Of a DNA stretch of 64,000 nt, positions 44,536 to 57,495 are shown in pieces. The stretch's first letter is position 1. Every line of letters begins with the position of its first letter. Source of the DNA: a virus; IMG/VR virus record IMGVR_UViG_3300044769_000080, one strand, 5' to 3'. The translations under genes and the position numbers were made by a program. The notes beneath the pieces were generated by a model. The model was not told the origin of the DNA. It did no database searches and was given only the letters and a program-made list of their open reading frames with translations.

Positions 44536-44611
44536 GCATCCGTAGCTCAATTGGCAGAGCAGCGGGCTTTTAACTCGTGGGCTGGAGGTTCGACTCCTCC
44601 CGGATGCACCA
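44536..44611 (+). tRNA. tRNA-Lys (anticodon UUU)
   Basis: GCATCCGTAGCTCAATTGGCAGAGCAGCGGGCTTTTAACTCGTGGGCTGGAGGTTCGACTCCTCCCGGATGCACCA. Perfect 7 bp acceptor, D-arm with GG, anticodon loop CTTTTAA, T-arm GGAGG/TTCGACT/CCTCC, encoded CCA. Confidence 0.8.
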
Positions 44612-44632
44612 TTTGGATCAGCCGTGGGAAGT

Positions 44633-44685
44633 GGCGGTAAATGTCCGCCTGTTTCTATCTGGCGTGTGGCGGTAATTTTACCGCC
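44633..44685 (+). repeat. two copies of the hairpin repeat (GGCGGTAAATGTCCGCC partial; GGCGGTAATTTTACCGCC perfect) right after tRNA-Lys
   Basis: Seen in sequence. A fifth imperfect copy GGCTGTAACTTTACCGCC lies at 29673-29690. Confidence 0.5.
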
Positions 44686-44778
44686 CAACACCAGCCAAGA
44701 TTGGCGTCTAGCTGTTCCGCCATGAAATTGAGCAGCTTTGCTTCGCAGATAGAATAACCAATCGTAGGAGAAAACTCA

Positions 44779-45165
44779 ATGAAGAAGCTCGTAATCGGCC
44801 TCGCACTGGCTATGCTGGCAATCAGTGCAACCCCGTCGTTCGCTCAAGTTCCTCCGGTCAAGAATCCTGTCGGTATTGCATTCGATTCGCCCGACCATGC
44901 GAATGCAGCCGTCACTGGTTACATGGTTGAAATCGTCAAGACCGACGGCTCAGTCCTCCAGACCTTGCAGATTCAGAAATCCAACACGACTGTTCGTGTG
45001 TCTGATGGTAAGGTTGTGGTTACCATCAACGTGCAGCCGATCACGTTTGGAACGTATACGTTCCGTGCGTTCACAGTCGCCGGAACGGTATTCAGCGTGC
45101 CGTCGCCTCTTTCTGACCCGTGGGAGCGTGTCGCTGGGTCGCCGAGCAAGCCAATCGTCCAATAA
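44779..45165 (+). CDS. secreted beta-rich protein (128 aa) with signal peptide
   Basis: MKKLVIGLALAMLAISATPSFAQ signal peptide. Ig/FN3-like beta-strand pattern. Confidence 0.45.
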   Translation: MKKLVIGLALAMLAISATPSFAQVPPVKNPVGIAFDSPDHANAAVTGYMVEIVKTDGSVLQTLQIQKSNTTVRVSDGKVVVTINVQPITFGTYTFRAFTVAGTVFSVPSPLSDPWERVAGSPSKPIVQ

Positions 45166-45218
45166 CAAGCTACGGGGGCAGGGGCTGTTGCCCCTCCCCT
45201 ACTCCAAAGGAGGATTAT

Positions 45219-45395
45219 ATGGCGAAGAGAATCGTGAAGGTGAAGGTGTTTCCGAAGGAAATCTTTGCTATTTATCGTGAAAACGGCGGCGAACTCCAGG
45301 TTATCGAAAAGCAATATCTGAGCAATGGCAGGAGAGCTGCAACCTACAAGCTTGTGAAGGTTGGTAAGGCCAAAGTCAAGACAACAGTCGAGTAA
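45219..45395 (+). CDS. small basic protein (58 aa)
   Basis: CTCCAAAGGAGGATT RBS, identical to that of the next gene. In frame with ORF-track entry 45120. Confidence 0.4.
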   Translation: MAKRIVKVKVFPKEIFAIYRENGGELQVIEKQYLSNGRRAATYKLVKVGKAKVKTTVE

Positions 45396-45414
45396 ACTCC
45401 AAAGGAGGATTCAA

Positions 45415-45975
45415 ATGCCCAGAACATCACGTAACACGGTCGAATTCGAGTCAGACGGCATCAAGCTCAAGGCAGAGTTCAAGCACCAGCATGCTGAGGA
45501 GCATGATCATCGCGAGGCCCTTCCTGTTTACAAGGATGCTGTCAAGGAAGTTGAGCTGATTGAGCTGGTTGGGGGTACCCTCGGCAGCGGACGTGAGGTT
45601 CGCAAGAACGTCCTGATGGTTGAGCGTATCCTCGTCCGTAACGACTGGGAATACGCTGTCAAGACTCCGATCATCGAGGAAGTAGAGATCGACGGTCGCC
45701 GGGCTGAACGTAAGCTGCGCCACATCACGACATGCTTGCTCTATACATCAGCTGATGGTATCGAATGGAAAAACCCCATCGGGCAGGGAACGTCCCGTTG
45801 CTCGGTCAAGGACAAGTACAACTGGCGTTTCGGTATCAAGGAATCGCTGGTTGAGGCTATCAAGTCGGCTGGCATCGAGAACTCTGGGCCGGTCCTCGGG
45901 GCGTTTTACACCGAGCTGCCGAAACGTCCGAAGCAGGTTGAGGCGGACGACGATGAAATCATCGTCATCGGTTAA
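45415..45975 (+). CDS. hypothetical protein (186 aa) with acidic C-terminal tail ...ADDDEIIVIG
   Basis: Same 15 nt RBS context as 45219. C-terminal motif shared with gene 36345-36776. Confidence 0.45.
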   Translation: MPRTSRNTVEFESDGIKLKAEFKHQHAEEHDHREALPVYKDAVKEVELIELVGGTLGSGREVRKNVLMVERILVRNDWEYAVKTPIIEEVEIDGRRAERKLRHITTCLLYTSADGIEWKNPIGQGTSRCSVKDKYNWRFGIKESLVEAIKSAGIENSGPVLGAFYTELPKRPKQVEADDDEIIVIG

Positions 45976-45985
45976 GAGGTGAGTC

Positions 45986-46843
45986 ATGAAGCTGCCGAAG
46001 TTCGAAGACAAACATCCGAAACACACGGCTGAGGGCTATGCAGCCACGAACGAGGAGCCGGAAGCTCATCGTAAGCTGATCAGCAACAAGCGATTCAAGC
46101 GCGCGGCTTCCATTGCATCTGGTGGAGAGATCCCTTATTGTGTATTGCTCAGCCGGTCGGATGAGGTGGTTGCTGTTGACCACTCATATCGAGCAATCAT
46201 TATGTGTTATCTGAAGGCTGTGTTGCTCAACACGCTCGGCCCGAGGGGAATGAAGGCATTGTTTGTCGAATCAAGCTATGAAGACGTGAAGGCTGTGTTG
46301 CTGGAAGCGGCAAAGTTGATGCCTCAGGTGTTACAGGACAAAGTGAATTGGGCTGATAAACAGCCTTACTACGATTACTATTCGGAATCAGCAAACCGAC
46401 GGTACTCGGTACTTTCGATCAGTGACATCAAGTATCTTCGTCGAGAAGCCTTCTTCACTCCACTGGCCACCCTCGAAGCAGTTGTGAAGCGACTGGATCA
46501 GGTCACCCTCGTGCACGGCGACCTGAGTGACCTCAAGCTATACGGTGGAAACTTCGATATTTTGTATGCCTCAAACGCGATGGGACATACCAATCGAGAC
46601 AAGAAATATCCGACCTTTAGCCAGTTCGAGGAACTCGTCAAACCTGACGGATATATCTTGATGACAACAGGCTATGGCACCAAAACAGATCCCAAGCTTC
46701 CAACCACCCTGAAGGAAATCAAGCGCATTAGTGGTCTGAGGTCTGATTGGGACCATGTTCTGTTGCAGAAAGCGGTAAAGAATGAGCCTGCCAAAGAAAC
46801 AACCCAAGCCGAAGCCCAAGTTTCCTCGAGTCCCAGTGCCTAA
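45986..46843 (+). CDS. hypothetical protein (285 aa), possible methyltransferase-like fold
   Basis: ORF track. No clear catalytic motif. Confidence 0.35.
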   Translation: MKLPKFEDKHPKHTAEGYAATNEEPEAHRKLISNKRFKRAASIASGGEIPYCVLLSRSDEVVAVDHSYRAIIMCYLKAVLLNTLGPRGMKALFVESSYEDVKAVLLEAAKLMPQVLQDKVNWADKQPYYDYYSESANRRYSVLSISDIKYLRREAFFTPLATLEAVVKRLDQVTLVHGDLSDLKLYGGNFDILYASNAMGHTNRDKKYPTFSQFEELVKPDGYILMTTGYGTKTDPKLPTTLKEIKRISGLRSDWDHVLLQKAVKNEPAKETTQAEAQVSSSPSA

Positions 46844-46888
46844 GCCCACAAAGGTGATTCCGAACAAGAAGAAAGACGCCAAAGAAAG

Positions 46889-47161
46889 GTGGGACGAATG
46901 CGATTTCTAGTATGGCTCGGTTGTATGACGATCCTCATCGGTGGCGCATGGCTTGGTGAGGTTTACGTGATGCCAATCACGCATGCTCAGTCGGCAGCTG
47001 TGAATCCTGAATGGGCTTACACCTGCTACAAGACACCTGATGCAGTCATCAACTTCCTCAACACCCTGAACTCTGTGAAGGCAGAGAAGGCAAAGTTGTT
47101 TGTAACTCGTGATGCTGTTCTGTCACACGTTCACATCTATTGCGTGGCGTATTGGAAGTGA
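46889..47161 (+). CDS. membrane-anchored or secreted small protein (90 aa)
   Basis: Hydrophobic N-terminus FLVWLGCMTILIGGAWLG. Confidence 0.35.
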   Translation: MGRMRFLVWLGCMTILIGGAWLGEVYVMPITHAQSAAVNPEWAYTCYKTPDAVINFLNTLNSVKAEKAKLFVTRDAVLSHVHIYCVAYWK

Positions 47162-47337
47162 TGGAAGACCGGGATACACAAATCAGGCGCATCGCGCCTC
47201 TCCTGATGCAACAACTCGGTATCAAGCGGCCTGAAGCCATCGATAGGCTGTGCAAGATGTCGCGTGAGGAGCGGTTGCGAGTGCGTCAACGTTTCAGGGC
47301 AGCGTTAGGAGGTAAGCGTGGGACACCACAAGTGTGA
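47161..47337 (+). CDS. hypothetical protein (about 58 aa)
   Basis: In frame with ORF-track entry 47140. Confidence 0.3.
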   Translation: MEDRDTQIRRIAPLLMQQLGIKRPEAIDRLCKMSREERLRVRQRFRAALGGKRGTPQV

Positions 47338-47518
47338 ATGGGTCTACGTGGGACACATCACATTCAGCACTGACAGCACTACAGTTGGCAAACACGAATG
47401 GGAATGTCCTCAATGTACGAGCAAGATGCATTCACAGCGTATTGCACCGGCTGGGAGGATCGAGGTTCGCAAGCCGACGAGGCGGTTCAGCAACGAACAT
47501 AGGCTGGTGGGCAAATGA
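47318..47518 (+). CDS. zinc-ribbon protein (66 aa)
   Basis: HKCEW...CPQC. Confidence 0.35.
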   Translation: MGHHKCEWVYVGHITFSTDSTTVGKHEWECPQCTSKMHSQRIAPAGRIEVRKPTRRFSNEHRLVGK

Positions 47519-47706
47519 ACTGCACCGTGCATGAGACGATCGAAACATTGCCGAACCGAGTGAGGATTTATCCCTATCGATGTGCTCGCTGTGGTGAGTG
47601 CTTTCTCTGTCAGCACAAACAGGAATCGACGACTGCGTGGATCTGTCCTGACGGATTCCGAATGACAACCCGGTGGACACCAGGTGTTAGAGCGGAGGAG
47701 CTATGA
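47515..47706 (+). CDS. zinc-ribbon protein (63 aa)
   Basis: CARCGECFLC...C. Confidence 0.35.
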   Translation: MNCTVHETIETLPNRVRIYPYRCARCGECFLCQHKQESTTAWICPDGFRMTTRWTPGVRAEEL

Positions 47707-47882
47707 AGGTTCAAACTCTTATCGAAATCCTCAGTCGTCGTAGTCCTGAGCTTGATGTTGTTCTTTACATTCCAGAGCTGGATTACTTGCCTGATGGCAG
47801 TGGAATTCGTGAGATTGCTGACGTAGAGCTGGAGGAATCTGATCACTCTGACGCTGCGCTCATCTGGGCAAAGGAGAAGTAA
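47703..47882 (+). CDS. small acidic protein (59 aa), not in ORF track
   Basis: ATGA overlap. Translation MKVQTLIEILSRRSPELDVVLYIPELDYLPDGSGIREIADVELEESDHSDAALIWAKEK. Confidence 0.3.
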   Translation: MKVQTLIEILSRRSPELDVVLYIPELDYLPDGSGIREIADVELEESDHSDAALIWAKEK

Positions 47883-48047: not shown

Positions 48048-48109
48048 TGGAGATGTGGGAAATCAATTCCACCTCCTGCGGATTCCTCGGAAACTGACGG
48101 AGGTCGATA

Positions 48110-49159
48110 ATGACAAAAACACGTTACGTTGATGATGTGAAAGTGCAGGCTCCGATTGATCAGGCCCTCATCAACCATGTTGCCCTCGTCGTTGACGGGT
48201 CAGGTAGCATGGCGGGCCTCGAAACCACGGTTGTGCGAGTCGTGGATGAGCTGATGGCAACCCTCGCGAGCAAGTCTCGTGAAACCGATCAGGAAACTCG
48301 TGTCAGTCTGTATGTGTTCGAGAACACCCTGTCAATCAAATGTCTCACATATGACAAGGATGTCCTCCGCATGCCATCGATGAAAGGCCTGTATCGAGCT
48401 GTCGGTAACACGCCCCTCATCGATGCTACGCTCAAGTCGATTGATGATTTGAAACAGTCAGCCACGCTGTATGGTGATCATGCGTTCCTCATCTATGTCC
48501 TGACGGATGGCGCTGAGAATGCGTCGAAGCATGCGCCTGATTCGCTTCGCAAGACAATCCAACAGTTGGACGAGAACTGGACCCTCGCGTGCTTCGTTCC
48601 TGACCGGACTAGTAAGAACGCAGCTGAGAGATTCGGTTTCCCTGCTGATAACGTGCAGCTATGGGAAGTGACCGAGGGTGGCTTGAAAGATGCTGCTCGG
48701 ACGATTACCAATAGCGTTTCCAGCTATTACACGATGCGCTCTAGCGGCGTGCGTGGTAGCAAGAACCTGTTTTCGATGGACCTCAGTAAACTGTCGAAGT
48801 CAACAATAGCAAAGAAACTGACGCCGCTCACGTTCGGCCAGTATCGCATGTTCGACGTGAAAGACAAGACACCGATTGCACATTTCGTGGAGGTGCAGCT
48901 ACGTCGGCCGTATAAGCTGGGTGAGGCTTACTACCAGCTAACCGAGCCGGTCAAGGTCCAGCCACAGAAACAAGTGTGTATCTGGGACCGTAAGAAGCAT
49001 GTCCTCTACGCCGGTAACGAAGCACGTCAGTTGCTTGGTCTGCCGAGCTACGAGGTCAAGCTGGAGCCTGCGGCTACGCCTGACTTCGATATCTTTATCC
49101 AGAGCACGAGCGTAAACCGAAACCTCTTGCCGGGACAGAAGGTTGTGGTGCTATCATGA
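48110..49159 (+). CDS. von Willebrand factor A (vWA) domain protein (349 aa)
   Basis: MIDAS motif VALVVDGSGSMAG (DxSxS) near N-terminus, later T and D positions. Stop overlaps the start of the NAMPT-family gene. Confidence 0.55.
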   Translation: MTKTRYVDDVKVQAPIDQALINHVALVVDGSGSMAGLETTVVRVVDELMATLASKSRETDQETRVSLYVFENTLSIKCLTYDKDVLRMPSMKGLYRAVGNTPLIDATLKSIDDLKQSATLYGDHAFLIYVLTDGAENASKHAPDSLRKTIQQLDENWTLACFVPDRTSKNAAERFGFPADNVQLWEVTEGGLKDAARTITNSVSSYYTMRSSGVRGSKNLFSMDLSKLSKSTIAKKLTPLTFGQYRMFDVKDKTPIAHFVEVQLRRPYKLGEAYYQLTEPVKVQPQKQVCIWDRKKHVLYAGNEARQLLGLPSYEVKLEPAATPDFDIFIQSTSVNRNLLPGQKVVVLS

Positions 49160-50649
49160 ACCTGCTCCCACCTCTGCGGAAAGATCAATACTATGTCAAG
49201 GTGCTGACAATGCAGTTGTTACCTCCCCTGAGGGCCGACGGATATAAGTGCGACCACCGTTCACAGTACCCCAAGGGCACGACCCTCGTGTACTCGAACG
49301 CCACCTGTCGTGGCAGCCGCCTCGCTGGTGTCGATCAGGCAGTTGTCTTCGGCCCTCAATATTGGGTCATCGAGCATCTGTCCCGAAGATGGTTTGCTGA
49401 TTTCTTCAACAAGCCCCTCGACCGGGTGATGCGGACCTACAAGCGTAGGATTGATAACTACCTCGGCCCTGGCGCGATTACGTATGACCACATCGAGGCG
49501 CTCCACAAGCTGGGCTACTTGCCACTATGCGTGAAGGCGCTGCCCGAGGGAACCCTCGTGCCGATGCGTGTACCCTATCTGACTATCAGAAACACGCATC
49601 CAGACTTCTTCTGGCTGACTAACATGCTCGAAACCAACCTCAGCAACGTGGTGTGGGGAATGGTGAACAGCGCAACGATTGCGTTCACGTATCGCAGGCA
49701 GTTTGAAGCCTTCGCCCGCATAACCGGATTTCCTCGTGAGATGATCAAGTGGATGGGACATGATTTCAGCTACCGGGGCATGTTTGGTGAGGACGCTGCC
49801 ATCATGTCTGGCATGGCTCATTTGCTGTCATTCACCGGAACCGACACCATCCCTGCTATCGACGGGCTGGAGGAGTATTATGGAGCAAATTCTGACACCG
49901 AACTCGTTGGGGGCTCCGTTCCGGCTACTGAGCACAGTGTTATGTCTATGGGCGGGCAGGAGTCCGAGATTGACACCTACCGGCGACTCATTAGTGAGGT
50001 TTACCCCAAAGGCATCGTGTCCGTTGTCTCAGATACATGGGATTACTTCAACGTGCTCGATACTATCCTTCCGGCGCTCAGAGAAGTTATTCTGGGGCGA
50101 GATGGAAAGGTAGTCATCCGGCCCGATAGCGGTGACCCGGTTGAGGTTATCTGCCAGAGCATGGAGAAGTTGTGGGCCACCTTTGGCGGGACGGTCAACG
50201 AGAAGGGTTATAAGGAGCTTGATCCTCACATCGGTCTGATCTATGGTGATAGCATCACGCTTGAGAGGCAGGGGAAGATTCTCAGCAGGCTTGAGGAGAT
50301 GGGCTTTGCGAGCTTGCCTGTGCTGGGGATTGGGAGCTTCACGTATCAGTACAACACAAGAGACACCTTGGGGCAGGCAATTAAGGCTACGTATGGAGAG
50401 GTCAACGGTGAGAGGCGTGAAATCTTCAAGCAGCCCAAGACTGATGACGGGACGAAGAACAGCGCGAGGGGCTTACTTGCGGTTCATCGGGCTGATGGCG
50501 ATCTTCCAGGTGGTAGGCTGTATCTCAAGGAGTCATGTAGCTGGAAGGAGGAAGCTGGCGGTGAGCTGCTGACCGTGTTCATGGACGGTGAGGTTAGAAA
50601 CTTTCAGACACTTGCCCAGATTCGAGCGCGGCTGGAGGCGCAACTCTGA
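49156..50649 (+). CDS. nadV: nicotinamide phosphoribosyltransferase family enzyme (NAMPT/NadV; possibly Namat-type) (497 aa)
   Basis: Long colinear matches to NAMPT: GTDTI, SVPATEHSV, VSVVSDTWDYFNV, VIRPDSGDP, NEKGYKEL, LIYGDSI, GIGSF, KQPKTDDGTKNSARGLLAVHR. Confidence 0.75.
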   Translation: MNLLPPLRKDQYYVKVLTMQLLPPLRADGYKCDHRSQYPKGTTLVYSNATCRGSRLAGVDQAVVFGPQYWVIEHLSRRWFADFFNKPLDRVMRTYKRRIDNYLGPGAITYDHIEALHKLGYLPLCVKALPEGTLVPMRVPYLTIRNTHPDFFWLTNMLETNLSNVVWGMVNSATIAFTYRRQFEAFARITGFPREMIKWMGHDFSYRGMFGEDAAIMSGMAHLLSFTGTDTIPAIDGLEEYYGANSDTELVGGSVPATEHSVMSMGGQESEIDTYRRLISEVYPKGIVSVVSDTWDYFNVLDTILPALREVILGRDGKVVIRPDSGDPVEVICQSMEKLWATFGGTVNEKGYKELDPHIGLIYGDSITLERQGKILSRLEEMGFASLPVLGIGSFTYQYNTRDTLGQAIKATYGEVNGERREIFKQPKTDDGTKNSARGLLAVHRADGDLPGGRLYLKESCSWKEEAGGELLTVFMDGEVRNFQTLAQIRARLEAQL

Positions 50650-50888
50650 TGTGTGCCATTGAAGGATCAAGCCCATACATCTGGACGATCTACGAGAAAA
50701 TCCCAGAGAACAGGCTCACCGACGACCAGAAGCGCTTTGGCATCACCCATGAGCGTATGTCATGCGGTGATTTTTCAAGCGAGGAACGTGCCAAGATGTG
50801 GCTGGACAATGCTCGTCGTGCCAAAGAACATCCTGAGAACTTCAAGGTCGAGAAGCACATGCTCGACTATCTGTTGAGGTGTCACTAA
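50649..50888 (+). CDS. hypothetical protein (79 aa)
   Basis: ORF track. Confidence 0.4.
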   Translation: MCAIEGSSPYIWTIYEKIPENRLTDDQKRFGITHERMSCGDFSSEERAKMWLDNARRAKEHPENFKVEKHMLDYLLRCH

Positions 50889-51052
50889 TGAAATACAACA
50901 ACTTCCTCACTCCACTGATGGTTGGTGCGTGGATTCCTGTGCCGATTATCATGGCAACCTCAGGCCAGGTTCGACAGGCTTCATGGATCTGGTTGTCTAT
51001 CGTCACTACAGCATGGGTTCTGGCCTGCGTATTCGGCAAGGAAAACGAATGA
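50888..51052 (+). CDS. small membrane protein (54 aa), not in ORF track
   Basis: Translation MKYNNFLTPLMVGAWIPVPIIMATSGQVRQASWIWLSIVTTAWVLACVFGKENE. Confidence 0.3.
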   Translation: MKYNNFLTPLMVGAWIPVPIIMATSGQVRQASWIWLSIVTTAWVLACVFGKENE

Positions 51053-51168
51053 ACATCCTAGAATTCATAGACAAGCACGCAGATGGCCTCGGTTTCCTGT
51101 TGTTCATCTTTATCGTTTTTGTGCTACCAGAGATCATTGATGCGTTTCGGAGGAAGCGTGGCTAAGTC

Positions 51169-51858
51169 ATGACAGCTAAGTTCTATCAAGTCGGTGGGTC
51201 GGTGCGGGACGAGTTCCTCGGCCTGCGCTCGAAGGACATCGACTATTCTGTGGAGGCTGAATCCTATGCAGCAATGCGACAAGCCATTCTTGACCGAGGC
51301 GGAGATATCTTCCTTGAAACGCCTAAGTACTTTACCATTCGGGCGAAGGTTCCCGGCCTCGGTGCGTGTGACTACGTGCTTTGTCGGAAAGACGGAGCTT
51401 ACAGTGATGGCCGACGCCCTGAGACAGTCGAGGTCGGGAGCATCTATGATGATCTCGCGAGACGCGATTTCACGATGAACGCCATCGCTCGGGCTGAGGA
51501 CGGCACAATCATTGACCCGTTTGACGGCAGAGCTGATATCGAGCAGCGTCTTATCAGATGTGTTGGAACAGCGAAAGCTCGTTTCACTGAAGACGGCCTC
51601 AGGATGCTGCGAGCCATCAGGTTCTCGGTAACCAAAAACTTCCGTATCGCAGACGACATCGTTACCTGTATCCGGCATGAGGACTTCTTAGGAACTCGAA
51701 TGTGGGGTGTTTCCGATGAGCGCATTCGTGAAGAGCTTCACAAAATGTTCCAGCACGACAGTGATTATTCGTTTAGCTTGCTTGGGACGTTTCCAGAATT
51801 CAGGCATTTTCTACTGCGTGGAAATCTCTGGCTCAAGCCGACATTGGAGGCGCGATGA
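51169..51858 (+). CDS. Pol-beta-like nucleotidyltransferase of the CCA-adding/poly(A) polymerase head-domain type (229 aa)
   Basis: FYQVGGSVRDEFLGLRSKDIDYSV matches the GG.VRD..LG....D.D signature of class II tRNA nucleotidyltransferases. Protein is short (head plus neck only). Confidence 0.55.
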   Translation: MTAKFYQVGGSVRDEFLGLRSKDIDYSVEAESYAAMRQAILDRGGDIFLETPKYFTIRAKVPGLGACDYVLCRKDGAYSDGRRPETVEVGSIYDDLARRDFTMNAIARAEDGTIIDPFDGRADIEQRLIRCVGTAKARFTEDGLRMLRAIRFSVTKNFRIADDIVTCIRHEDFLGTRMWGVSDERIREELHKMFQHDSDYSFSLLGTFPEFRHFLLRGNLWLKPTLEAR

Positions 51859-52025
51859 AAGTTTAACAAAGTCATCATCGTCTGGTGGAACAACCGCAGG
51901 TTTGCTGAGATTCATGAGGCGAGCTACGAGATCATCGCTGGCGAGCTTCTGCGGCTCTAACGAGGATGGACACCGGTATCTGTGTTTCATCGCAACCGGG
52001 CTTTTGAGCTTGGGGAGGAGATGAA

Positions 52026-52424
52026 GTGAAACTTTTCATACCAGAGCTCCAAACTGTCCTCAAGCTTACCAAAGCTTGGACGTTCCCTGTCGAACTGGAG
52101 CACCGTAACTCAACTCTAATTGAGGTGATGAGCGGTCACAAGGCACAGGACTTCTATCCAACTGTCACCTACGACTGGAAGAATCTTAGTAAGCACTCCC
52201 GTCAGATGACTAATCGCATAGAGCATCCTCCCAAGGTCGAGTGGACTGGGTTACAGGGTAGGATGCCTAAGGGGACGCTTCTCACGGTGGACCGAATCTA
52301 TATCCGTGCAGGTAATGCAACGTTCTCGTCAGTCACGTTCAAGACGAAGTTGAACGGCAAGTCTGTACGTTTCTGGGCAAAACTATCATCGGTCAATACA
52401 ATAGAAGCAGAGGTGGTTGAGTGA
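52026..52424 (+). CDS. hypothetical protein (132 aa), GTG start
   Basis: GGGAGGAG RBS before GTG. Confidence 0.4.
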   Translation: MKLFIPELQTVLKLTKAWTFPVELEHRNSTLIEVMSGHKAQDFYPTVTYDWKNLSKHSRQMTNRIEHPPKVEWTGLQGRMPKGTLLTVDRIYIRAGNATFSSVTFKTKLNGKSVRFWAKLSSVNTIEAEVVE

Positions 52425-53260
52425 GAATCTATACACGAGCTGGAGACTTAGCGTTCGAAGAATTCACATTCCCAGACGGGCAGCCTCACTTCAAGTTGCT
52501 CACTTGGACGAGGGAATTCCGCGATGTGACCATTGAGATTGCGATCAAGTCGCCTCTCGACATCTTCCGTGTACTGTTGGCTGGGAGGGTGCTTTCGGAC
52601 AACAGCTATCACGTTCACCTCAACATCCGTTACTTGCTCGGTGCGAGGATGGACCGACCAATCGACAAGTGGCAGCCTGACACGCTTGCGCTCGTGCGCC
52701 TTATGCTACAGGCTGACGGGCCATTCCATAGTATCCGAGTGTTGGATGTTCACAACCCATCAGCTACCATCGGAATGATTAATGTCCTCCCATTTAAGGT
52801 GGTGAAGGCTGTCTATGATACGGTTGGCGATCCAATCATCATCGTTCCTGACAAGGGAGCGGTGCAGCGGGTTGAGGCATTGACTGCGGCGCTGCGCGTC
52901 AAGAACCGGATTTACTGTGAGAAAACTCGCGACGTGGCAACCGGGAAGATCACTGGTTTCAAGATCCTCAACGCTTTAGTCGCCAATGACGAGGACTGCC
53001 TCATCATTGACGACATCTGCGACGGTGGTGCAACCTTTACGAGCCTTGCGATGGGCCTGAAGGATATTGGTGCGAAGACAGTTAATCTCTATGTCACGCA
53101 TGGCATCTTCAGCAAGGGATTCAAGGATCTTGTAAATGCTCCTGACATGGGCATGAAAGGCCAGATTGATCGCATCTTTACCACGGATTCGTATCGTGAC
53201 TGGCACGTAGTGCCTCATGTGCCTGTGAGCTGTATCCCGGTGAGAATGGAGAATATGTGA
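52421..53260 (+). CDS. prs: ribose-phosphate pyrophosphokinase (PRPP synthetase) homologue, possibly ADPR-PP synthetase type (279 aa)
   Basis: FPDGQ, IRYLLGARMDR (compare IPYFGYARQDR), RVLDVHNP, IIVPDKGAVQRV, IIDDICDGGATF (PRPP-binding DDxxDTGGT-like), YVTHGIFS. Confidence 0.65.
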   Translation: MRIYTRAGDLAFEEFTFPDGQPHFKLLTWTREFRDVTIEIAIKSPLDIFRVLLAGRVLSDNSYHVHLNIRYLLGARMDRPIDKWQPDTLALVRLMLQADGPFHSIRVLDVHNPSATIGMINVLPFKVVKAVYDTVGDPIIIVPDKGAVQRVEALTAALRVKNRIYCEKTRDVATGKITGFKILNALVANDEDCLIIDDICDGGATFTSLAMGLKDIGAKTVNLYVTHGIFSKGFKDLVNAPDMGMKGQIDRIFTTDSYRDWHVVPHVPVSCIPVRMENM

Positions 53261-53535: not shown

Positions 53536-53608
53536 TCGACACCATCGGGGCAATGATTTTCATCTCATTCCCAGCCACGCTACTTGCGATCTGGATGAGG
53601 AACGATGA

Positions 53609-53794
53609 GTGGAGGCGAAAGTGATCAACAACCCGCCGCGTGTGTTACTTGGTATTGTGCTTGGCTTTGTGGGAGGTGCACTGATATCAAACTCCCTTGG
53701 CCTTGGCTGGGGCATTGGCAACCTCATCGGTGCCATCATTGGGGCAGTTGGAATGGACTGGATACTAGGAACTGATAATGACAACCAAGCCTGA
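53609..53794 (+). CDS. small Gly-zipper membrane protein (61 aa)
   Basis: LLGIVLGFVGGALISNSLGLGWGIGNLIGAIIGAVG. Confidence 0.35.
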   Translation: MEAKVINNPPRVLLGIVLGFVGGALISNSLGLGWGIGNLIGAIIGAVGMDWILGTDNDNQA

Positions 53795-54818
53795 AGTGCT
53801 CATCCTCTCCGGCTTGCCGGGGTCTGGGAAGAGCACATTTGCCGAGGACTGGCTTGTCCAGAAACAAGGACAAGGCGTCCGTATCAACTACGACAACATC
53901 CGCCTTGAACTGTTCGGCACGGACTGGAATTGGAACCGTACTGACGAGGGCAAGATGAAGGACCACGCTATGGAGACGGCGAACGATGCCCTCAAATGTG
54001 GTTATAGCCTTATCATCGACAACACGAACCTGACGCCTAAGGCGAGGGCACCGTGGGAGAACCTTGCTCGCAGCTATGGGCTGACGCCCGAGAACATGGA
54101 ATTTGATACACCTGTTGCCGAGTGTGTCCGTCGCGACTCTTTGAGGAGCGATCGTAGCCGAGTCGGGCGTGCGGTGATTGAACGGTTCGCGCTGTTCAAT
54201 GGATTCATCGACTGGAACGACCGATCTCTGTATCCGAGGGATTTCATCATCGTTGACATGGACGGAACGGTAGCGGATTGTGATTGGCGACGGAAGCTGG
54301 CGTTTGAGGGACCAACCAAGCACAAGGATGTTAAGATTTTCCTTGAATCCTCGAATGGAGTCACCGTTCCGTGTTCATTGAAGAACAAGGTAGTGGACCG
54401 TGAGTGTCCCGAGTGTGGTGGGAAGGCTCGCAAAAACTGGCCTCTGTTCGCGGCGAACGTGGAGAACGATCCACCGATTCAGCCAATCGTGAGTCTTGTC
54501 CAGACGCTCGAAATGTATGGTGGTGAGGATACTAGCGGAGATTTCTCAGGGCTTGATGTGATCGTGGTGTCTGGCCGTGAGATTGGCCCCTCCGGTAAGG
54601 GAACTGAAGCGTGGTTGGAAAAGATGCCGTGGCACACTCTCCACTTGTTCATGCGTAACTCACAAGACTACCGCCCAGATGACGTGATCAAACAGGAAAT
54701 CCTCGACCTCCTGCCGAAGAATCGCATCCGCTACGTCCTCGACGACCGCCAGCGTGTTGTCGATATGTGGCGCAGAAACGGCTTAACGTGCTTGCAGGTG
54801 GCAGATGGCAAATTCTGA
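53778..54818 (+). CDS. pseT: polynucleotide 5'-kinase/3'-phosphatase (T4 Pnk/PseT-like) with inserted zinc ribbon (346 aa)
   Basis: P-loop LSGLPGSGKST, DNTNL, HAD motif IIVDMDGTVAD, VVSGREIG. C-terminus DDRQRVVDMWRRNGLTCLQVADGKF nearly identical in pattern to the T4 Pnk C-terminus. CPECGG insert. Confidence 0.8.
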   Translation: MTTKPEVLILSGLPGSGKSTFAEDWLVQKQGQGVRINYDNIRLELFGTDWNWNRTDEGKMKDHAMETANDALKCGYSLIIDNTNLTPKARAPWENLARSYGLTPENMEFDTPVAECVRRDSLRSDRSRVGRAVIERFALFNGFIDWNDRSLYPRDFIIVDMDGTVADCDWRRKLAFEGPTKHKDVKIFLESSNGVTVPCSLKNKVVDRECPECGGKARKNWPLFAANVENDPPIQPIVSLVQTLEMYGGEDTSGDFSGLDVIVVSGREIGPSGKGTEAWLEKMPWHTLHLFMRNSQDYRPDDVIKQEILDLLPKNRIRYVLDDRQRVVDMWRRNGLTCLQVADGKF

Positions 54819-54993
54819 GTGTCAACCAACCAAAAACATCATGTGCCTCAACTGCTGGAAGGTGGTGGAACAACACTGCGGCTGTTCTCCTCTTCCAGGC
54901 ACTAACACCTGCAAGTGTCCAGAACCAGATCGGTTTGACGCAGAAGCTGCGATTGACGAGCTTCTGGAGGAACTCAAGCATGAGCATATCTAG
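54805..54993 (+). CDS. small Cys-rich protein (62 aa)
   Basis: ORF track. CLNC...CGC...CKC. Confidence 0.3.
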   Translation: MANSECQPTKNIMCLNCWKVVEQHCGCSPLPGTNTCKCPEPDRFDAEAAIDELLEELKHEHI

Positions 54994-55507
54994 CCGCTTC
55001 TCGGAGGAAGTCGAGTCCAAGCTGTACCATCTCGACATCTGTACTCACATCAAGAACGAAGAAGACATTGACATTCTCACTCGTCGTGGCTTCAACGTTA
55101 ACCTTCGCCTGATGAAGACCTCGCCAGTCTATCACGCCATCATAGCTCAGTGCGTGCATTACATCCGCGACTGTGCGACGACCAAGAGGGCTGGCTACTC
55201 CCGGCCGATGGGCTTCAGCGGCGCTAATGCTGGCATCCCGTTCAACATCATTGCGATGCGGGATGGGACGTATATGATCAATCCTCAAGTGATCGAAGCT
55301 AGCGACAAGATGAGGATTACGAGCAGTGACTGTGGCAGCTTGACGCTGAAGAAGCCAATCAACGTGCAGCGTCCGACTTATGTCACCATCGAATACTACG
55401 ACCTCGATGGGAAGCCGCATGTTGTTAGTGGTTTCTTGCCGACTGAGCAGCACGAAATCGACCACAACAATGGGATTCTGATTACTGACCCGCGCAGGAG
55501 GGCCTGA
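54980..55507 (+). CDS. def: peptide deformylase (175 aa)
   Basis: GFSGANAGIP (G.G.AA.Q-like), SDCGSL (EGCLS-like), EQHEIDHNNG (HE.DH metal motif). In frame with ORF-track entry 54767. Confidence 0.65.
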   Translation: MSISSRFSEEVESKLYHLDICTHIKNEEDIDILTRRGFNVNLRLMKTSPVYHAIIAQCVHYIRDCATTKRAGYSRPMGFSGANAGIPFNIIAMRDGTYMINPQVIEASDKMRITSSDCGSLTLKKPINVQRPTYVTIEYYDLDGKPHVVSGFLPTEQHEIDHNNGILITDPRRRA

Positions 55508-55668
55508 TGACTTGGAAAGAATTCAAAGCATGGATGGAAAAGCAGGGTGTCACTGATAAGATTCACGTTGAAACTGTAGACATCAGGGGTTATGACTTTG
55601 ACGAAAAGCATCCTCCAAATGTCCACTGGGGCCGTGATGGCCGTAAACGAACTGTGAGTGTCTGGTAA
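55507..55668 (+). CDS. small protein (53 aa), not in ORF track
   Basis: TGATG overlap with def. Translation MTWKEFKAWMEKQGVTDKIHVETVDIRGYDFDEKHPPNVHWGRDGRKRTVSVW. Confidence 0.35.
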   Translation: MTWKEFKAWMEKQGVTDKIHVETVDIRGYDFDEKHPPNVHWGRDGRKRTVSVW

Positions 55669-55679
55669 AGGAGAGTCTA

Positions 55680-55958
55680 GTGTCATTCAAGCTCCAACCA
55701 ACATCAGATACGCTCTGTCTAAGCTGCCGCTTCGCAAACATTGCTGAGTTTTCAAACGGTGACCGTATGATTGGCTGTTTGAAATTCGGGAATTTTGAGC
55801 TGTCGAAAATCATACCGTATCCTGTCATCAAGTGTAATGTGTTTGAGAACAAGAACTCAGCGACTGAGTGGGAAATGCGACAAATCGCATGGGACGTCAA
55901 AGTTTCCTCCAAAGGTGGGTTCATTGGGTTCGAAGCGCCACCGAAGGAGGACAGGTGA
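55680..55958 (+). CDS. hypothetical protein (92 aa)
   Basis: ORF track. Confidence 0.35.
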   Translation: MSFKLQPTSDTLCLSCRFANIAEFSNGDRMIGCLKFGNFELSKIIPYPVIKCNVFENKNSATEWEMRQIAWDVKVSSKGGFIGFEAPPKEDR

Positions 55959-56186
55959 GGGATGCTCATGTTGCCGATACTGAGGTCAGTGCAGCGATTC
56001 GTGGTTGTCTTGTTCCATTCGGAGACATGGCGATTACTGACTTGCCGAGGAAGCGATTCAGTTGGCCCAAAGTCTACGCCTACACCGACCACGTTAGGGC
56101 CGCTGAAGTTCGTTCAGTTGGAAGTCTCAGACTGGACACAAGGCGGGAGGATCAAGACAGCTAAGGGCATAGGTCATCACGAATCG

Positions 56187-56534
56187 ATGCTTGATGCTCT
56201 GAAACATGACCCGTGTGCGTATTGTGGCGGTAAATTTCCTGCCGGTTCCCACAACAACGGGAAGCGAACGTATGCGTCGATTGACCATATCGCTCCTCTG
56301 AACAGGCATCACGTGAAGGCCAAGCAGGGGAGGGACCATTGGTCGAACATGACTGGTTGCTGCTCTACGTGCAACAACAAAAAACAAAATATCAAGTTGA
56401 TTTACTTCCTCTGGTGGAAGCGAGACGGCTTCAAGCGACCACTGGCACACGTTCTCAGACAGCGCAAGGAGCGATATGGTAGCAGGCTTAACAGAATTCA
56501 ACACATCGTGGCATTCCTACCCGTCGGTGCATAA
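56187..56534 (+). CDS. HNH endonuclease (115 aa; C-terminal part of ORF-track entry 55962-56534)
   Basis: CAYCGGKF...SIDHIAPL...HWSNMTGCCSTCNNKK is an HNH motif. The upstream 75 codons of the ORF-track entry look like out-of-frame overlap. Confidence 0.55.
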   Translation: MLDALKHDPCAYCGGKFPAGSHNNGKRTYASIDHIAPLNRHHVKAKQGRDHWSNMTGCCSTCNNKKQNIKLIYFLWWKRDGFKRPLAHVLRQRKERYGSRLNRIQHIVAFLPVGA

Positions 56535-57495
56535 TCTAGGGCATCCCGCCATCTCCCAGCTTCTCACCGTTCCAGTCCAAGTCGAGGAAAAAATCGACGG
56601 GAGCCAGTTCAGCTTCGGGCTGTTTCCTGACACTGATACGCCTGTCGTGCGGATGGATGGCGGGGTCGGGTATGGCCTGAAGATTCGGTCGCGTGGTGCT
56701 GTGATGCACCCTGACGCTCCGGTGGATATGTTCAAGCGTCCCACCGAGACGGTCAAGTCACTGATTCCCATGCTGAAACTGGGTTGGACGTATCGGGGTG
56801 AGGTGCTTGTCAAGAAACAACACAACGCCCTCGCCTATGACCGCACCCCTGAAGGCTATATCATCATCTGGGACATCAACCCTGGATATGAGGAATACCT
56901 TGATTATCAAGCTAAAGCAGCGGAAGCCGCTAGACTCGGCCTTGAGTGCGTTCCATTACTATATACAGGTATGGTGGCTGGCATTGAGCAATTCCGAACG
57001 TTCCTCGATACGACAAGCTGTCTCGGAGGGCAAAAGATTGAAGGGGTTGTCGTCAAGCCTCTTGGATATAGCTTGTTTGGCACAGACAAAAAAGTCCTCA
57101 TCGGGAAGTTCGTCTCGGAAGCGTTCAAAGAAGTCCACCGCAAAACCTGGGGCGAAAGCAACCCAGCGGGCAAGGACATCCTCGCGCTGATCGGGGCAAA
57201 GTACACGACTGCTGCGAGGTGGCAGAAAGCGCTTGCTCATTTAAGGGAAACAGGAAAGATCGAGGACAGTCCACGAGATATTGGTTTGTTAATCAATGAG
57301 GTACCAGTTGATGTGCTCAGTGATTCTCAAGACGAAATAAAGGAGGCTCTATTCAAATGGGCTTGGCCTCACATTAAAAGACAAGTCACTCGTGGGTTGG
57401 CTGAATGGTACAAAGAGAAACTTTTGGAGAAGTCTTTCTCTTCAGTCGAATCTCACGAATCTGTTGACCAAGAACAAGCATCTCCTGATAAGTGA
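56476..57495 (+). CDS. RNA ligase, Rnl2-like (339 aa)
   Basis: Motif I VQVEEKIDGSQFSF (KxDG), motif IV EGVVVKP, motif V LIGKFV. Size and layout like T4 Rnl2. Confidence 0.7.
   Translation: MVAGLTEFNTSWHSYPSVHNLGHPAISQLLTVPVQVEEKIDGSQFSFGLFPDTDTPVVRMDGGVGYGLKIRSRGAVMHPDAPVDMFKRPTETVKSLIPMLKLGWTYRGEVLVKKQHNALAYDRTPEGYIIIWDINPGYEEYLDYQAKAAEAARLGLECVPLLYTGMVAGIEQFRTFLDTTSCLGGQKIEGVVVKPLGYSLFGTDKKVLIGKFVSEAFKEVHRKTWGESNPAGKDILALIGAKYTTAARWQKALAHLRETGKIEDSPRDIGLLINEVPVDVLSDSQDEIKEALFKWAWPHIKRQVTRGLAEWYKEKLLEKSFSSVESHESVDQEQASPDK

What the first reader, a model, noticed from the sequence alone, without database searches (positions are those of the whole stretch)
44536..57495. T4-like tRNA repair set (Pnk, Rnl2-type ligase, CCA-type NTase, tRNA-Lys) interleaved with peptide deformylase and HNH genes
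The Pnk kinase-phosphatase (C-terminus almost T4-identical in pattern) and an Rnl2-like ligase (KIDGS, EGVVVKP) are the toolkit T4 uses to reseal tRNA-Lys cut by the PrrC anticodon nuclease. This phage also carries tRNA-Lys(UUU) itself and a short CCA-adding-type nucleotidyltransferase.

Together they suggest layered countermeasures against anticodon nucleases and tRNA-end damage (PrrC/RloC, colicin-like ACNases, tRNA 3'-end trimming defences). A deformylase sits between pnk and rnl, which is unusual.
Basis: partly seen in the sequence, partly recalled or inferred. Interest (0 to 1): 0.7.

Follow-up and report, generated by a model that had tools for sequence, protein, structure and literature searches.

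The report
Phage tRNA-repair and NAD-rebuilding gene block
An uncultured phage carries, in one stretch of early genes, an RNA end-healing kinase/phosphatase, an RNA ligase, a shortened CCA-adding enzyme, its own lysine tRNA and a known NAD+-rebuilding enzyme pair; this looks like a kit for undoing host defence damage, and its parts are all of kinds already described in phages.

Summary
These are tRNA-Lys(UUU), a T4-type Pnk, a divergent phage-type peptide deformylase, two HNH-type nucleases, a PF09414 ligase and a 229-aa class II CCA-type nucleotidyltransferase.

The ligase is Rnl2-like by fold, not a DNA ligase. Its model has an all-helical C-terminal domain and no OB fold. T4 Rnl2 is the best Foldseek match (E 3.6e-10), while DNA ligases score only about 1e-3.

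Three corrections apply.
- T4's tRNA-Lys repair uses Rnl1, not Rnl2.
- This ligase family mostly sits in phage replication and recombination modules without Pnk. Only the window's own sub-lineage places it next to Pnk, with RlaP, SpoU, Ro60 and cREC genes nearby.

The ligase-Pnk-short-NTase trio also occurs in the cultured Arthrobacter phage Racecar. Such sets are already described in comparative genomics.

This is a new member of a known kind, of modest interest. The open points are the uncharacterised ligase clade and the tail-less CCA-type enzymes.

The parts
44536..44611 (+). tRNA-Lys(UUU) with genomically encoded CCA. The anticodon loop is CUUUUAA and positions 36-41 read UAACUC.
   Evidence: ARAGORN; Rfam RF00005, 69.6 bits; sequence and fold.
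48110..49159 (+). vWA-domain protein (349 aa). It is a conserved upstream neighbour of Namat in relative L003. Its role is unknown.
   Evidence: Weak VWA Pfam hits and phrog_26613 at 3e-97. There is a 61% identical homolog directly upstream of the NARP1 pair in L003.
49156..50649 (+). Namat-type nicotinamide ADP-ribose transferase (NARP1 enzyme 2).
   Evidence: PF04095. It scores 491 bits to SpbetaL1 Namat 9W5W/9W5X against 214 bits to true Nampts. The PDB ids are confirmed as Namat in PMC12774641. The clamp residues R40/F392/Y396 align to conserved R and GIGSFTYQYNTRD.
51169..51858 (+). Short (229 aa) class II CCA-adding-type nucleotidyltransferase. It has the head and neck domains only, with no body or tail.
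   Evidence: PF01743 at 1e-20. NF009814 gives 145 bits but covers only profile positions 24-205 of 396. Alignment to 6ibp residues 61-246 shows GGSVRD...DID, RRD and EDGLRMLR. All 48 IMG/VR relatives at or above 41% identity are 226-276 aa.
52026..52424 (+). 132-aa protein of unknown function. Its stop overlaps the Adps start.
   Evidence: phrog_22676 at 1e-23 and no Pfam hit. Homologs occur in Pseudomonas, Rhizobium and Agrobacterium phages.
52421..53260 (+). Adps-like PRPS-fold enzyme (NARP1 enzyme 1).
   Evidence: phrog_619 at 8e-56. It falls below all NCBIfam PRPS cut-offs and matches PRPS structures only weakly. It hits the prs gene of Vibrio phage ICP1 (29%); an ICP1 Adps homolog was the protein used for the structures in PMC13586617. 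It lies 1.8 kb from Namat.
53778..54818 (+). T4-type polynucleotide 5'-kinase/3'-phosphatase (346 aa). The phosphatase domain carries a Cys-rich insert.
   Evidence: PF13671 plus PF25109. T4 Pnk 1ltq matches at 1.5e-29 and Pnkp1 4xrp at 4e-22. The P-loop, the Asp and Arg catalytic residues, DMDGT and DDR are invariant among 5 orthologs, and the insert is shared with L002, L003 and L039.
54805..54993 (+). 62-aa Cys-rich ORF bridging pnk and pdf (hypothetical).
   Evidence: ORF list; no Pfam hit. It is absent in L003, where pnk and pdf abut.
54980..55507 (+). Divergent phage-type peptide deformylase (175 aa counted from ATG 54980).
   Evidence: PF01327 at 3.5e-13. The best PDB match is Vibrio phage Vp16 PDF 5mtc at 1e-6. 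QHEIDH and the metal-binding Cys are kept, EGCLS is replaced by SDCGS, and the motif-1 Gln is replaced by Asn. The L003 ortholog is 77% identical and directly follows pnk.
55962..56534 (+). HNH endonuclease gene. It overlaps the ligase start by 59 nt in another reading frame.
   Evidence: PF01844 at 8.6e-7; phrog_2118. HNH genes also lie upstream of the ligase in L002 and L003.
56476..57495 (+). Rnl2-fold ATP-dependent RNA ligase (339 aa) with predicted adenylylation site Lys39.
   Evidence: PF09414, 46.7 bits. The AF2 model has pLDDT 89.4 with an NTase domain and an all-helical C-terminal domain. The Foldseek top hit is T4 Rnl2 2hvr at E 3.6e-10, with DNA ligases at about 1e-3. hhalign against T4 rnlB aligns motifs I to V and the C-terminal domain. 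K39, D41, G42, E109, D133, E189, K194 and K211 are invariant in 61 homologs.
57386..57898 (-). HNH/endonuclease VII-like gene. It is convergent with the ligase and overlaps its 3' end by 110 nt.
   Evidence: phrog_1035 at 3e-25 plus other HNH phrogs.
58246..58953 (+). Calcineurin-type metallophosphoesterase. It is a possible extra 3'-end healing enzyme, but the link is weak.
   Evidence: PF00149 at 1.6e-10. It hits phrog_8238 at 2e-6; that family is annotated RNA ligase, and the window Pnk's kinase domain matches its N-terminal part. A metallophosphoesterase also sits next to the short NTase in L088. The PDB search was uninformative.

Best explanation
The span is part of a variable block of accessory, counter-defence genes in the early region of an uncultured phage. 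It holds at least two separate modules plus mobile nucleases.

**Module 1, NARP1 (assigned by homology).** The Adps-like enzyme would pyrophosphorylate ADP-ribose. The Namat-type enzyme would join the product to nicotinamide. Together they rebuild NAD+ after host NADase defences.

**Module 2, RNA break repair (inferred).**
- The Pnk phosphatase domain converts 2',3'-cyclic or 3'-phosphate ends to 3'-OH.
- The Pnk kinase domain phosphorylates 5'-OH ends.
- The Rnl2-fold ligase is adenylylated on Lys39 and seals the 3'-OH/5'-PO4 break, most easily as a nick held in a stem.
- The head-and-neck-only CCA-type nucleotidyltransferase rebuilds trimmed tRNA 3' ends. All three phage tRNAs already encode CCA, so repair is a more likely job than maturation.
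- The phage tRNA-Lys(UUU) is a spare part for a commonly attacked tRNA.

The deformylase is a translation-support gene of the Vp16 phage type. The HNH genes are most simply homing-type nucleases lodged beside the conserved ligase.
For: **Domain and active-site evidence**
- Pnk.
- Ligase.
- NTase.
- NARP1.

**Pnk-ligase linkage.** Pnk lies within 5.5 kb of the ligase in the window, L002, L003, L007, L008, L039 and L040. These, together with L041 and L001 (which have no Pnk within 10 kb), form one terminal clade in an NJ tree without bootstrap support.

**RNA-specific partners in those relatives**
- RlaP, shown to add 1-2 nucleotides to damaged RNA 3' ends (PMC12776372).
- SpoU methylase, Ro60/TROVE and cREC.

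**Independent recurrence**
- Arthrobacter phage Racecar has RNA ligase, Pnk and a short tRNA NTase within 3.6 kb.
- L088 has P-loop kinase, short NTase, metallophosphoesterase, Thg1, Adps and Namat in a row.
- 31 of 80 NTase relatives have tRNA genes within 8 kb, up to 19 of them.

**tRNA-Lys**
- The phage prefers AAG (58-69%) over AAA, so codon supplementation is not an obvious reason for carrying a UUU isoacceptor.
- Positions 39 and 41 differ from the E. coli AriB site. Changes at these positions block that nuclease (PMC12409363).

**Literature.** Published comparative genomics already reads tRNAs, Rnl1/Rnl2/RtcB, PNK-HAD, CCA-adding enzyme, RlaP, TROVE and NAD+ salvage as phage counter-defence sets (PMC7824862).
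Against: - No biochemistry exists for this ligase clade, and the host is unknown.
- At least 14 of 41 ligase relatives lie in replication or recombination modules with no Pnk within 10 kb.
- Among 149 immediate neighbours outside the lineage, the commonest families are PDDEXK/Cas4, AAA_25/Prim-Pol, DNA pol A, SSB and DnaB. Pnk appears only twice.
- The NJ tree nests the Pnk-linked clade inside these replication-linked branches.
- The biological role of T4 Rnl2 itself is unknown (my own knowledge), and T4's tRNA repair ligase is Rnl1.
- The second Lys of ligase motif V aligns to an invariant Val.
- The NTase lacks the body and tail domains that bind tRNA in full-length class II enzymes.
- The tRNA-Lys anticodon loop is canonical, and no tRNA-Lys was found in the stretches fetched for relatives.
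- Promoter and terminator scans give no operon evidence beyond chance.
Confidence: 0.6

Rival explanations
1. The ligase, and possibly Pnk, serves DNA metabolism rather than tRNA repair. It would seal or process nicks and ends arising in replication, recombination or repair, for example RNA-containing nicks. The adjacency to Pnk would then reflect DNA or RNA-DNA end healing.
For: - Relatives sit beside Prim-Pol/AAA_25, Cas4-like PDDEXK, DnaB/Toprim, SSB, DEAD helicase and DNA pol A.
- L001, inside the window's own clade at 60% identity, has the order PDDEXK, ligase, DEAD helicase, PolA.
- The Pnk-linked clade is nested within replication-linked branches.
- T4-type Pnk also acts on DNA ends (my own knowledge).
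Against: - The fold and C-terminal domain are Rnl2-type with no OB domain. DNA ligases score about 10^7-fold worse in E-value.
- L037 and L038 carry a canonical ATP DNA ligase immediately downstream, so the Rnl2-like enzyme is not simply the replicative ligase there.
- In the window's lineage the partners are RNA-specific: RlaP, SpoU, Ro60 and cREC.
- No replication genes lie in the window.
Confidence: 0.2
2. There is no functional set. The span is a hypervariable accessory region where unrelated auxiliary genes accumulate and each acts alone. The tRNA would serve codon supply, the NTase general tRNA 3'-end upkeep, the deformylase protein maturation, and Pnk and the ligase unrelated jobs.
For: - Gene content between conserved anchors differs in every relative.
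- The NTase and the 132-aa gene are absent from the same position in L003 and L041.
- The tRNA differs among relatives.
- HNH genes mark mobility.
- There are no operon signals above chance.
Against: - Pnk and ligase recur together in 7 related loci.
- The ligase-Pnk-NTase trio recurs in an unrelated cultured phage.
- Kinase, NTase, metallophosphoesterase and Thg1 cluster in L088.
- Lys codon usage does not favour AAA.
Confidence: 0.15
3. The short nucleotidyltransferase belongs functionally to the NARP1 operon in which it is embedded, acting on an NAD-related nucleotide rather than on tRNA.
For: - It lies between Namat and Adps.
- 10 of 80 relatives have a Nampt-like gene within 8 kb. The closest relative, L088, has Adps and Namat 2-3 kb away.
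- NARP1 operons are known to recruit extra enzymes, such as the Macro-domain Adpp (10.64898/2026.01.28.702374).
Against: - All class II tRNA-NTase catalytic motifs are intact, including the nucleotide-templating EDxxR and the flexible-loop region.
- NARP1 operons in L003 and L041 lack it.
- Most relatives sit near tRNA arrays, Pnk or RlaP rather than NARP1.
- Annotated relatives are all called tRNA nucleotidyltransferase.
Confidence: 0.05

Closest known systems
T4 tRNA restriction-repair pathway (Pnkp plus Rnl1, countering PrrC cleavage of tRNA-Lys)
   Same: - The healing enzyme has the same architecture: an N-terminal P-loop kinase and a C-terminal HAD phosphatase with all catalytic residues.
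- The expected chemistry is the same: cyclic phosphate to 3'-OH, 5'-OH to 5'-PO4, then ATP-dependent sealing (PMC1920235).
   Different: - The sealing enzyme is Rnl2-fold, not Rnl1.
- Pnk carries a Cys-rich insert absent from T4.
- The phage also brings its own tRNA-Lys and a CCA-type NTase.
- Host, nuclease and trigger are unknown.
T4 RNA ligase 2 (gp24.1) and the kinetoplastid REL1 family
   Same: - It has the two-domain Rnl2 architecture.
- It is the best structural match (2hvr, E 3.6e-10).
- Motifs I, III, IIIa and IV and part of the C-terminal domain align.
   Different: - Identity is only 14-16%. Neither phmmer nor a family profile finds any solved ligase.
- Motif V has Lys-x-Val where T4 has Lys-x-Lys.
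- It forms a large separate clade: more than 4,600 clusters at 90% identity, all of those listed coming from metagenome sources or carrying no informative name.
- The usual genomic home of this clade is the replication module.
Phage RNA-repair gene sets described by comparative genomics (Iyer et al. 2021, PMC7824862; Burroughs and Aravind 2016 as cited there)
   Same: It shows the same repertoire logic: phage tRNAs, Rnl2, PNK-HAD, a CCA-adding enzyme or RlaP, TROVE in relatives, HNH next to Rnl2, and NAD+ salvage nearby.
   Different: - The published sets were described for jumbo phages. This phage is on a 64 kb contig (relatives are on contigs of 53-98 kb), and the six large structural-side ORFs I tested match no PHROG.
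- The NAD module here is NARP1 (Namat and Adps) rather than Nampt plus NMNAT.
NARP1 NAD+ reconstitution pathway (Adps plus Namat; SpbetaL1, Bas63, ICP1)
   Same: - The Namat-type enzyme has conserved clamp residues and scores 491 bits to the solved Namat.
- A short PRPS-like partner lies within 5 genes.
   Different: Three or four extra genes, including the CCA-type NTase, are inserted between the two enzymes. No Macro-domain Adpp was detected.
Class II CCA-adding enzymes (B. stearothermophilus 1miv, Planococcus 6ibp)
   Same: The head and neck are present with motifs A to D and the flexible-loop region.
   Different: - It ends at about residue 229 and lacks the body and tail domains.
- It belongs to a coherent phage clade of 226-276 aa enzymes. 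I found no biochemical study of this clade.
Vibrio phage Vp16 peptide deformylase (5mtc)
   Same: - It is the best PDB match.
- It has the minimal phage-type length with no C-terminal helix.
- The HEIDH motif and the Cys ligand are kept.
   Different: - Motif 1 Gln is replaced by Asn, and EGCLS by SDCGS.
- It has an N-terminal extension of about 45 aa.
- Its activity is untested.

Membership tests
T4-type polynucleotide kinase-phosphatase (Pnkp) | N-terminal P-loop kinase with GxxGxGKS/T, a catalytic Asp and Arg residues | tested here: met
   GLPGSGKST is present. D39 and R42 align to T4 D35 and R38, and R123 aligns to R126. These residues are invariant in 5 orthologs. PF13671 scores 6.6e-23.
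T4-type polynucleotide kinase-phosphatase (Pnkp) | C-terminal HAD phosphatase (DxDxT) of the PNKP type, placed after the kinase | tested here: met
   DMDGT, VVSGRE, the conserved Lys and LDDR all align to T4. PF25109 scores 6.9e-28.
T4-type polynucleotide kinase-phosphatase (Pnkp) | 5'-kinase and 2',3'-cyclic/3'-phosphatase activity on RNA ends | not testable with these tools
   Needs an enzyme assay.
RNA ligase 2 (Rnl2) | Covalent nucleotidyltransferase motifs I, III, IIIa, IV and V | tested here: inconclusive
   Motifs I (EKIDGS), III (RGE), IIIa (WDI) and IV (EGVVVKP) align to T4 Rnl2 and are invariant. In motif V, K211 aligns to K225, but K227 aligns to an invariant Val.
RNA ligase 2 (Rnl2) | Signature all-alpha C-terminal domain instead of an OB fold | tested here: met
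   The AF2 model has helices spanning residues 215-326 and no OB domain. Full-length T4 Rnl2 is the top Foldseek hit over 327 columns. C-terminal domain helices align in hhalign.
RNA ligase 2 (Rnl2) | Sealing of 3'-OH/5'-PO4 nicks with an RNA 3'-OH strand | not testable with these tools
   Needs an enzyme assay.
T4 PrrC-countering tRNA-Lys repair system | Rnl1-type ligase with a tRNA-specific C-terminal domain | tested here: not met
   The window protein gives no PF09511 hit. T4 Rnl1 ranks only 25th to 28th in the fold search. The T4 pathway uses Rnl1 (PMC1920235).
T4 PrrC-countering tRNA-Lys repair system | Host PrrC-type anticodon nuclease targeting tRNA-Lys | not testable with these tools
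   The host is unknown. The tRNA sequence has no exact match in 185,579 species genomes. Ligase relatives occur only in MAGs of many phyla.
Class II CCA-adding enzyme | Head and neck catalytic motifs A to D (GGxVRD..DxD, RRD, EDxxR) with the flexible loop | tested here: met
   Shown by alignment to 6ibp. The best NCBIfam model is the CCA tRNA nucleotidyltransferase NF009814, ahead of PcnB.
Class II CCA-adding enzyme | Body and tail domains that bind the tRNA | tested here: not met
   The protein is 229 aa. It matches only profile positions 24-205 of 396 and scores below the equivalog cut-off, 145 against 290 bits.
NARP1 (Adps plus Namat) | Nampt-fold enzyme of the Namat type with adenine-binding selectivity clamp residues | tested here: met
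   It scores 491 bits to 9W5W/9W5X against 214 bits to Nampts. R40, F392 and Y396 align to conserved residues. The residue numbering was inferred from the 9W5X chain index.
NARP1 (Adps plus Namat) | PRPS-like Adps gene within 10 genes of Namat | tested here: met
   A 279-aa PRPS-like gene lies 1.8 kb downstream. It hits the ICP1 prs gene. The Adps-specific PP-loop features were not examined.
Peptide deformylase | Three motifs: GxGxAAxQ, EGCLS and HExxH | tested here: inconclusive
   HEIDH and the Cys are kept. Gln is replaced by Asn in motif 1, and EGCLS by SDCGS. Pfam scores 49.9 bits against a cut-off of 22.8, but the protein falls below all NCBIfam cut-offs.

The most novel reading that the evidence does not exclude
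The window's ligase belongs to a very large, uncharacterised clade of Rnl2-fold ligases. The clade has more than 4,600 clusters at 90% identity, from metagenomic phages and MAG prophages. Its default genomic home is the phage replication and recombination module, sometimes directly beside a canonical ATP DNA ligase.

If these enzymes act on DNA or on RNA-DNA junction nicks, that would be a new biological role for the Rnl2 fold. The Pnk-linked arrangement here would then be a secondary recruitment into RNA repair, or the Pnk-ligase pair would not be repairing tRNA at all.
Probability: 0.2. Interest if true: 0.6.

Novelty: new member of a known kind. Interest (0 to 1): 0.35.

Why it matters
It adds a compact example, from a phage lineage with no cultured relatives, of stacked countermeasures against two common host strategies: tRNA cleavage and NAD+ depletion. 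RNA-end repair genes and NARP1 are found side by side in the window and in three other contigs (L003, L041, L088).

It also flags two enzyme groups that are abundant in phages and that I found no biochemistry for:
- an Rnl2-fold ligase clade found mostly in replication modules;
- head-and-neck-only CCA-type nucleotidyltransferases, which lack the domains known to hold tRNA.

Testing either would be a straightforward experiment. Neither result would overturn current understanding.

Tried and rejected
- **Megablast of the 13.4 kb span against 50,697 phage records.** No match.
- **phmmer and a 40-sequence profile of the ligase against PDB sequences.** No ligase found. The family had to be placed by fold and hhalign instead.
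- **Single-sequence Pnk scan of IMG/VR.** No relatives, so I could not build a Pnk-centred view of linkage.
- **Exact tRNA-Lys pattern in species genomes.** No match, so no host clue. Ligase relatives in genomes are all MAGs from many phyla, again giving no host.
- **BLAST-level markers on the MAG loci.** Too insensitive: 5 of 42 loci annotated.
- **Longer ligase homologs (P0017 and others) as possible Pnk-ligase or HNH-ligase fusions.** No extra Pfam domains.
- **DNA-ligase reading.** Rejected on architecture and fold ranking.
- **HNH-ligase fusion in the window.** Rejected, because the two ORFs are in different frames.
- **The 132-aa ORF as the missing body/tail of a split CCA enzyme.** I judged this unlikely from reading its sequence, which looks strand-rich rather than helical. 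Its homologs do not accompany the NTase. No structure prediction was run.
- **Promoter and terminator scans.** Not above shuffled expectation.
- **Metallophosphoesterase against PDB.** Uninformative.
- **Bastille phage context of the nearest annotated ligase homolog.** Uninformative.
- **Phage identification.** tblastn of the 705-aa ORF found no match in the phage records. PHROG scans of that ORF and five other large minus-strand ORFs also found no family.

Full report
**Observation**

The window is almost all of a 64,128-bp JGI metagenome contig. Large minus-strand ORFs occupy 1-28 kb and tightly packed plus-strand genes occupy 30-64 kb.

- tRNA-Lys(UUU) lies at 44536-44611 (ARAGORN; Rfam 69.6 bits).
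- The Pnk at 53778-54818 combines a P-loop kinase (PF13671) with the PNKP-type HAD phosphatase (PF25109). T4 Pnk is its best solved relative (1.5e-29). The catalytic residues align, and the C-terminus is strikingly T4-like.
- The ligase at 56476-57495 passes the PF09414 cut-off (46.7 against 27 bits).
- The 229-aa protein at 51169-51858 is a PolyA_pol-head enzyme. Its best solved relatives are class II CCA-adding enzymes, at about 1e-29.
- A deformylase homolog and an HNH gene lie between pnk and the ligase. A second HNH/EndoVII-like gene on the minus strand overlaps the ligase 3' end.
- The deformylase probably starts at ATG 54980, giving 175 aa like its L003 ortholog. A 62-aa Cys-rich ORF fills the gap after pnk.

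**What the ligase is**

Sequence searches against solved structures find nothing, even with a 40-sequence profile.

An AlphaFold2 model built on 61 homologs is confident (pLDDT 89.4). It shows a nucleotidyltransferase domain followed by an all-helical C-terminal domain, with no OB fold.

- Foldseek ranks full-length T4 Rnl2 first (E 3.6e-10).
- T. brucei REL1 and Naegleria Rnl follow.
- DNA ligases appear only at about 1e-3.
- hhalign of the family profile against T4 rnlB aligns motifs I, III, IIIa and IV and part of the C-terminal domain (E 9.5e-4). In motif V the second Lys of T4 falls on an invariant Val.

It is, however, a distant and separate clade. More than 4,687 clusters at 90% identity match it. 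Those listed are unnamed or called hypothetical, apart from one that JGI names 'RNA ligase'. The only relatives in 185,579 species genomes are in MAGs of many phyla.

**Where that ligase lives**

I fetched 41 related loci.

- Pnk lies within 5.5 kb of the ligase in six of them: L002, L003, L007, L008, L039 and L040. All are in the window's lineage, marked by a shared COOH-NH2-ligase module.
- Those loci also carry RlaP, SpoU methylase, Ro60/TROVE, cREC, Acb5 and NARP1 genes.
- At least 14 others place the ligase among Prim-Pol/AAA_25, Cas4-like PDDEXK, DnaB/Toprim, SSB, DEAD helicase and DNA polymerase A genes, with no Pnk within 10 kb.
- An unbiased Pfam scan of 149 immediate neighbours outside the lineage gives the same picture. 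PDDEXK_1 occurs 6 times, AAA_25 5, Cas4 4, DNA_pol_A 3 and Prim-Pol 3. Pnk domains occur twice and canonical DNA ligase twice.
- The two DNA ligases, in L037 and L038, sit directly downstream of the Rnl2-like gene.
- An NJ tree rooted on T4 Rnl2 puts the Pnk-linked ligases in one terminal clade nested within replication-linked branches. The tree has no bootstrap support and is indicative only.

The tRNA-repair reading therefore rests on the sub-lineage context. It does not rest on the family as a whole.

**The nucleotidyltransferase**

Motifs A (GGSVRD..DID), B (RRD) and D (EDGLRMLR) and the flexible-loop region align without gaps to the Planococcus enzyme. The protein stops after the neck domain.

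This is a coherent phage clade.
- 475 GenBank phage records have relatives annotated as tRNA nucleotidyltransferase.
- In IMG/VR, all 48 relatives at or above 41% identity are 226-276 aa. More distant ones are 423-513 aa.
- 31 of 80 loci have tRNA genes within 8 kb, 14 have RlaP-like genes, 6 have Pnk and 10 have Nampt-like genes.
- In Arthrobacter phage Racecar the order is RNA ligase, hypothetical, Pnk, hypothetical, short NTase.
- In L088, which carries the closest NTase at 61% identity, the order is HNH, P-loop kinase, NTase, metallophosphoesterase, a 202-aa ORF, Thg1, Adps-like, Namat-like.

All three tRNAs in the window encode their own CCA. A repair role therefore fits better than a maturation role. 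I found no biochemical study of these tail-less enzymes.

**The missed module**

The NTase sits between a Nampt-fold protein (49156-50649) and a short PRPS-like protein (52421-53260).

- The Nampt-fold protein scores 491 bits to SpbetaL1 Namat (9W5W/9W5X) against 214 bits to true Nampts. The entries are identified as Namat in PMC12774641.
- It conserves the clamp residues R40, F392 and Y396.
- The PRPS-like protein falls below every PRPS cut-off. It is homologous to the prs gene of Vibrio phage ICP1; an ICP1 Adps homolog was the protein used for the structures in PMC13586617.

This pair is NARP1, an experimentally established counter to NAD+-depleting defences. The same pair lies upstream of the ligase in L003 and L041.

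**tRNA-Lys and the other genes**

- The tRNA's anticodon loop is the canonical CUUUUAA.
- Positions 36-41 read UAACUC, where E. coli has UAAUCA. Changes at positions 39 and 41 block the PARIS nuclease AriB.
- AriB nicks the anticodon stem and leaves 3'-OH and 5'-PO4 ends (PMC12409363). That kind of nick would suit an Rnl2-type enzyme (the substrate preference is from my own knowledge of T4 Rnl2). With the host unknown, this is suggestive only.
- The phage prefers AAG to AAA.
- Relatives carry other tRNAs or none near the ligase.
- The deformylase is closest to Vibrio phage Vp16 PDF. It keeps HEIDH and the Cys ligand but has altered motifs 1 and 2.
- The pnk-pdf order is shared with L003.
- Published work notes that some Rnl2 genes are fused to HNH domains (PMC7824862). 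Here the HNH ORF is in a different frame from the ligase.

**Mechanism and comparison**

The best-supported reading (confidence 0.6) is a counter-defence gene block with two independent modules plus spare parts.
- NARP1 rebuilds NAD+.
- Pnk heals broken RNA ends and the Rnl2-fold ligase seals them.
- The short NTase restores 3' ends.
- The tRNA-Lys replaces a vulnerable tRNA.

It works like the T4 Pnkp-ligase pathway but is not a copy of it. T4 uses Rnl1 (PMC1920235). Sets of this kind are already described for phages (PMC7824862). I therefore rate it a new member of a known kind, with interest 0.35.

The main rival (0.2) is a DNA-side role for the ligase, based on the family's usual neighbourhood. 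Enzyme assays on defined RNA and DNA nicks would settle it.

Noticed in passing
window 49156-53260: A NARP1 NAD+ reconstitution pair (Namat plus an Adps-like gene) is split by three or four inserted genes, including the CCA-type NTase. RNA-end repair genes and NARP1 lie side by side in the window and in L003, L041 and L088.
   Followed up: yes
L003:467-2059 and L002:422-2056: Close relatives encode a Ro60/TROVE plus vWA_Ro60 protein upstream of the same Pnk-ligase block. The window has only a 349-aa vWA protein (48110-49159) at the equivalent place. I did not search for Y-RNA-like partners.
   Followed up: no
window 53778-54818 (residues about 171-256): The Pnk phosphatase domain has an insert of about 59 aa relative to T4, with Cys171, Cys203 and CPEC (Cys215, Cys218). 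The insert is shared with L002, L003 and L039 but absent from L040 and T4. It may be a zinc knuckle.
   Followed up: partly
window 1988-27540, minus strand: Six large minus-strand ORFs (375-705 aa) have no PHROG match at 1e-5. The 705-aa ORF has no tblastn hit in 50,697 phage records. If these are the structural genes, they are very remote from cultured phages.
   Followed up: partly
window 28348-28434, minus strand: A tRNA called Ala(AGC) by ARAGORN is 87 nt long, with an oversized anticodon region (Rfam 45 bits). It could be an intron-containing or otherwise atypical tRNA. It abuts tRNA-Arg(UCG), and both encode CCA.
   Followed up: no
window 60579-61790 and 34891-35352: A phiEco32-like COOH-NH2 ligase is conserved downstream of the ligase in relatives; L002 and L003 also have a GGACT gene there. 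A circularly permuted YpsA SLOG protein is also present. These may be base-hypermodification and nucleotide-signal genes.
   Followed up: no
window 57386-57495: The minus-strand HNH/EndoVII-like ORF overlaps the last 36 codons of the ligase (110 nt, convergent). The upstream HNH ORF overlaps the ligase start by 59 nt.
   Followed up: no
L037:10898-12019 and L038:10895-12040: In a deep branch of the ligase family, a canonical ATP-dependent DNA ligase (KIDGER motif, PF01068 plus PF04679) is encoded immediately after the Rnl2-like ligase.
   Followed up: partly
L039:8515-8970 and L040:4680-5198: A SpoU-type 2'-O-methyltransferase lies between or near Pnk and the ligase in relatives. It could play a Hen1-like role, protecting the repaired junction. 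The window instead has an unrelated class I methyltransferase-like gene at 45986-46843.
   Followed up: no
window 43025-44359: An SPFH/Band_7 protein (444 aa, with a long coiled-coil tail) is encoded just upstream of the tRNA-Lys. A Band_7 gene also occurs in relative L001.
   Followed up: no
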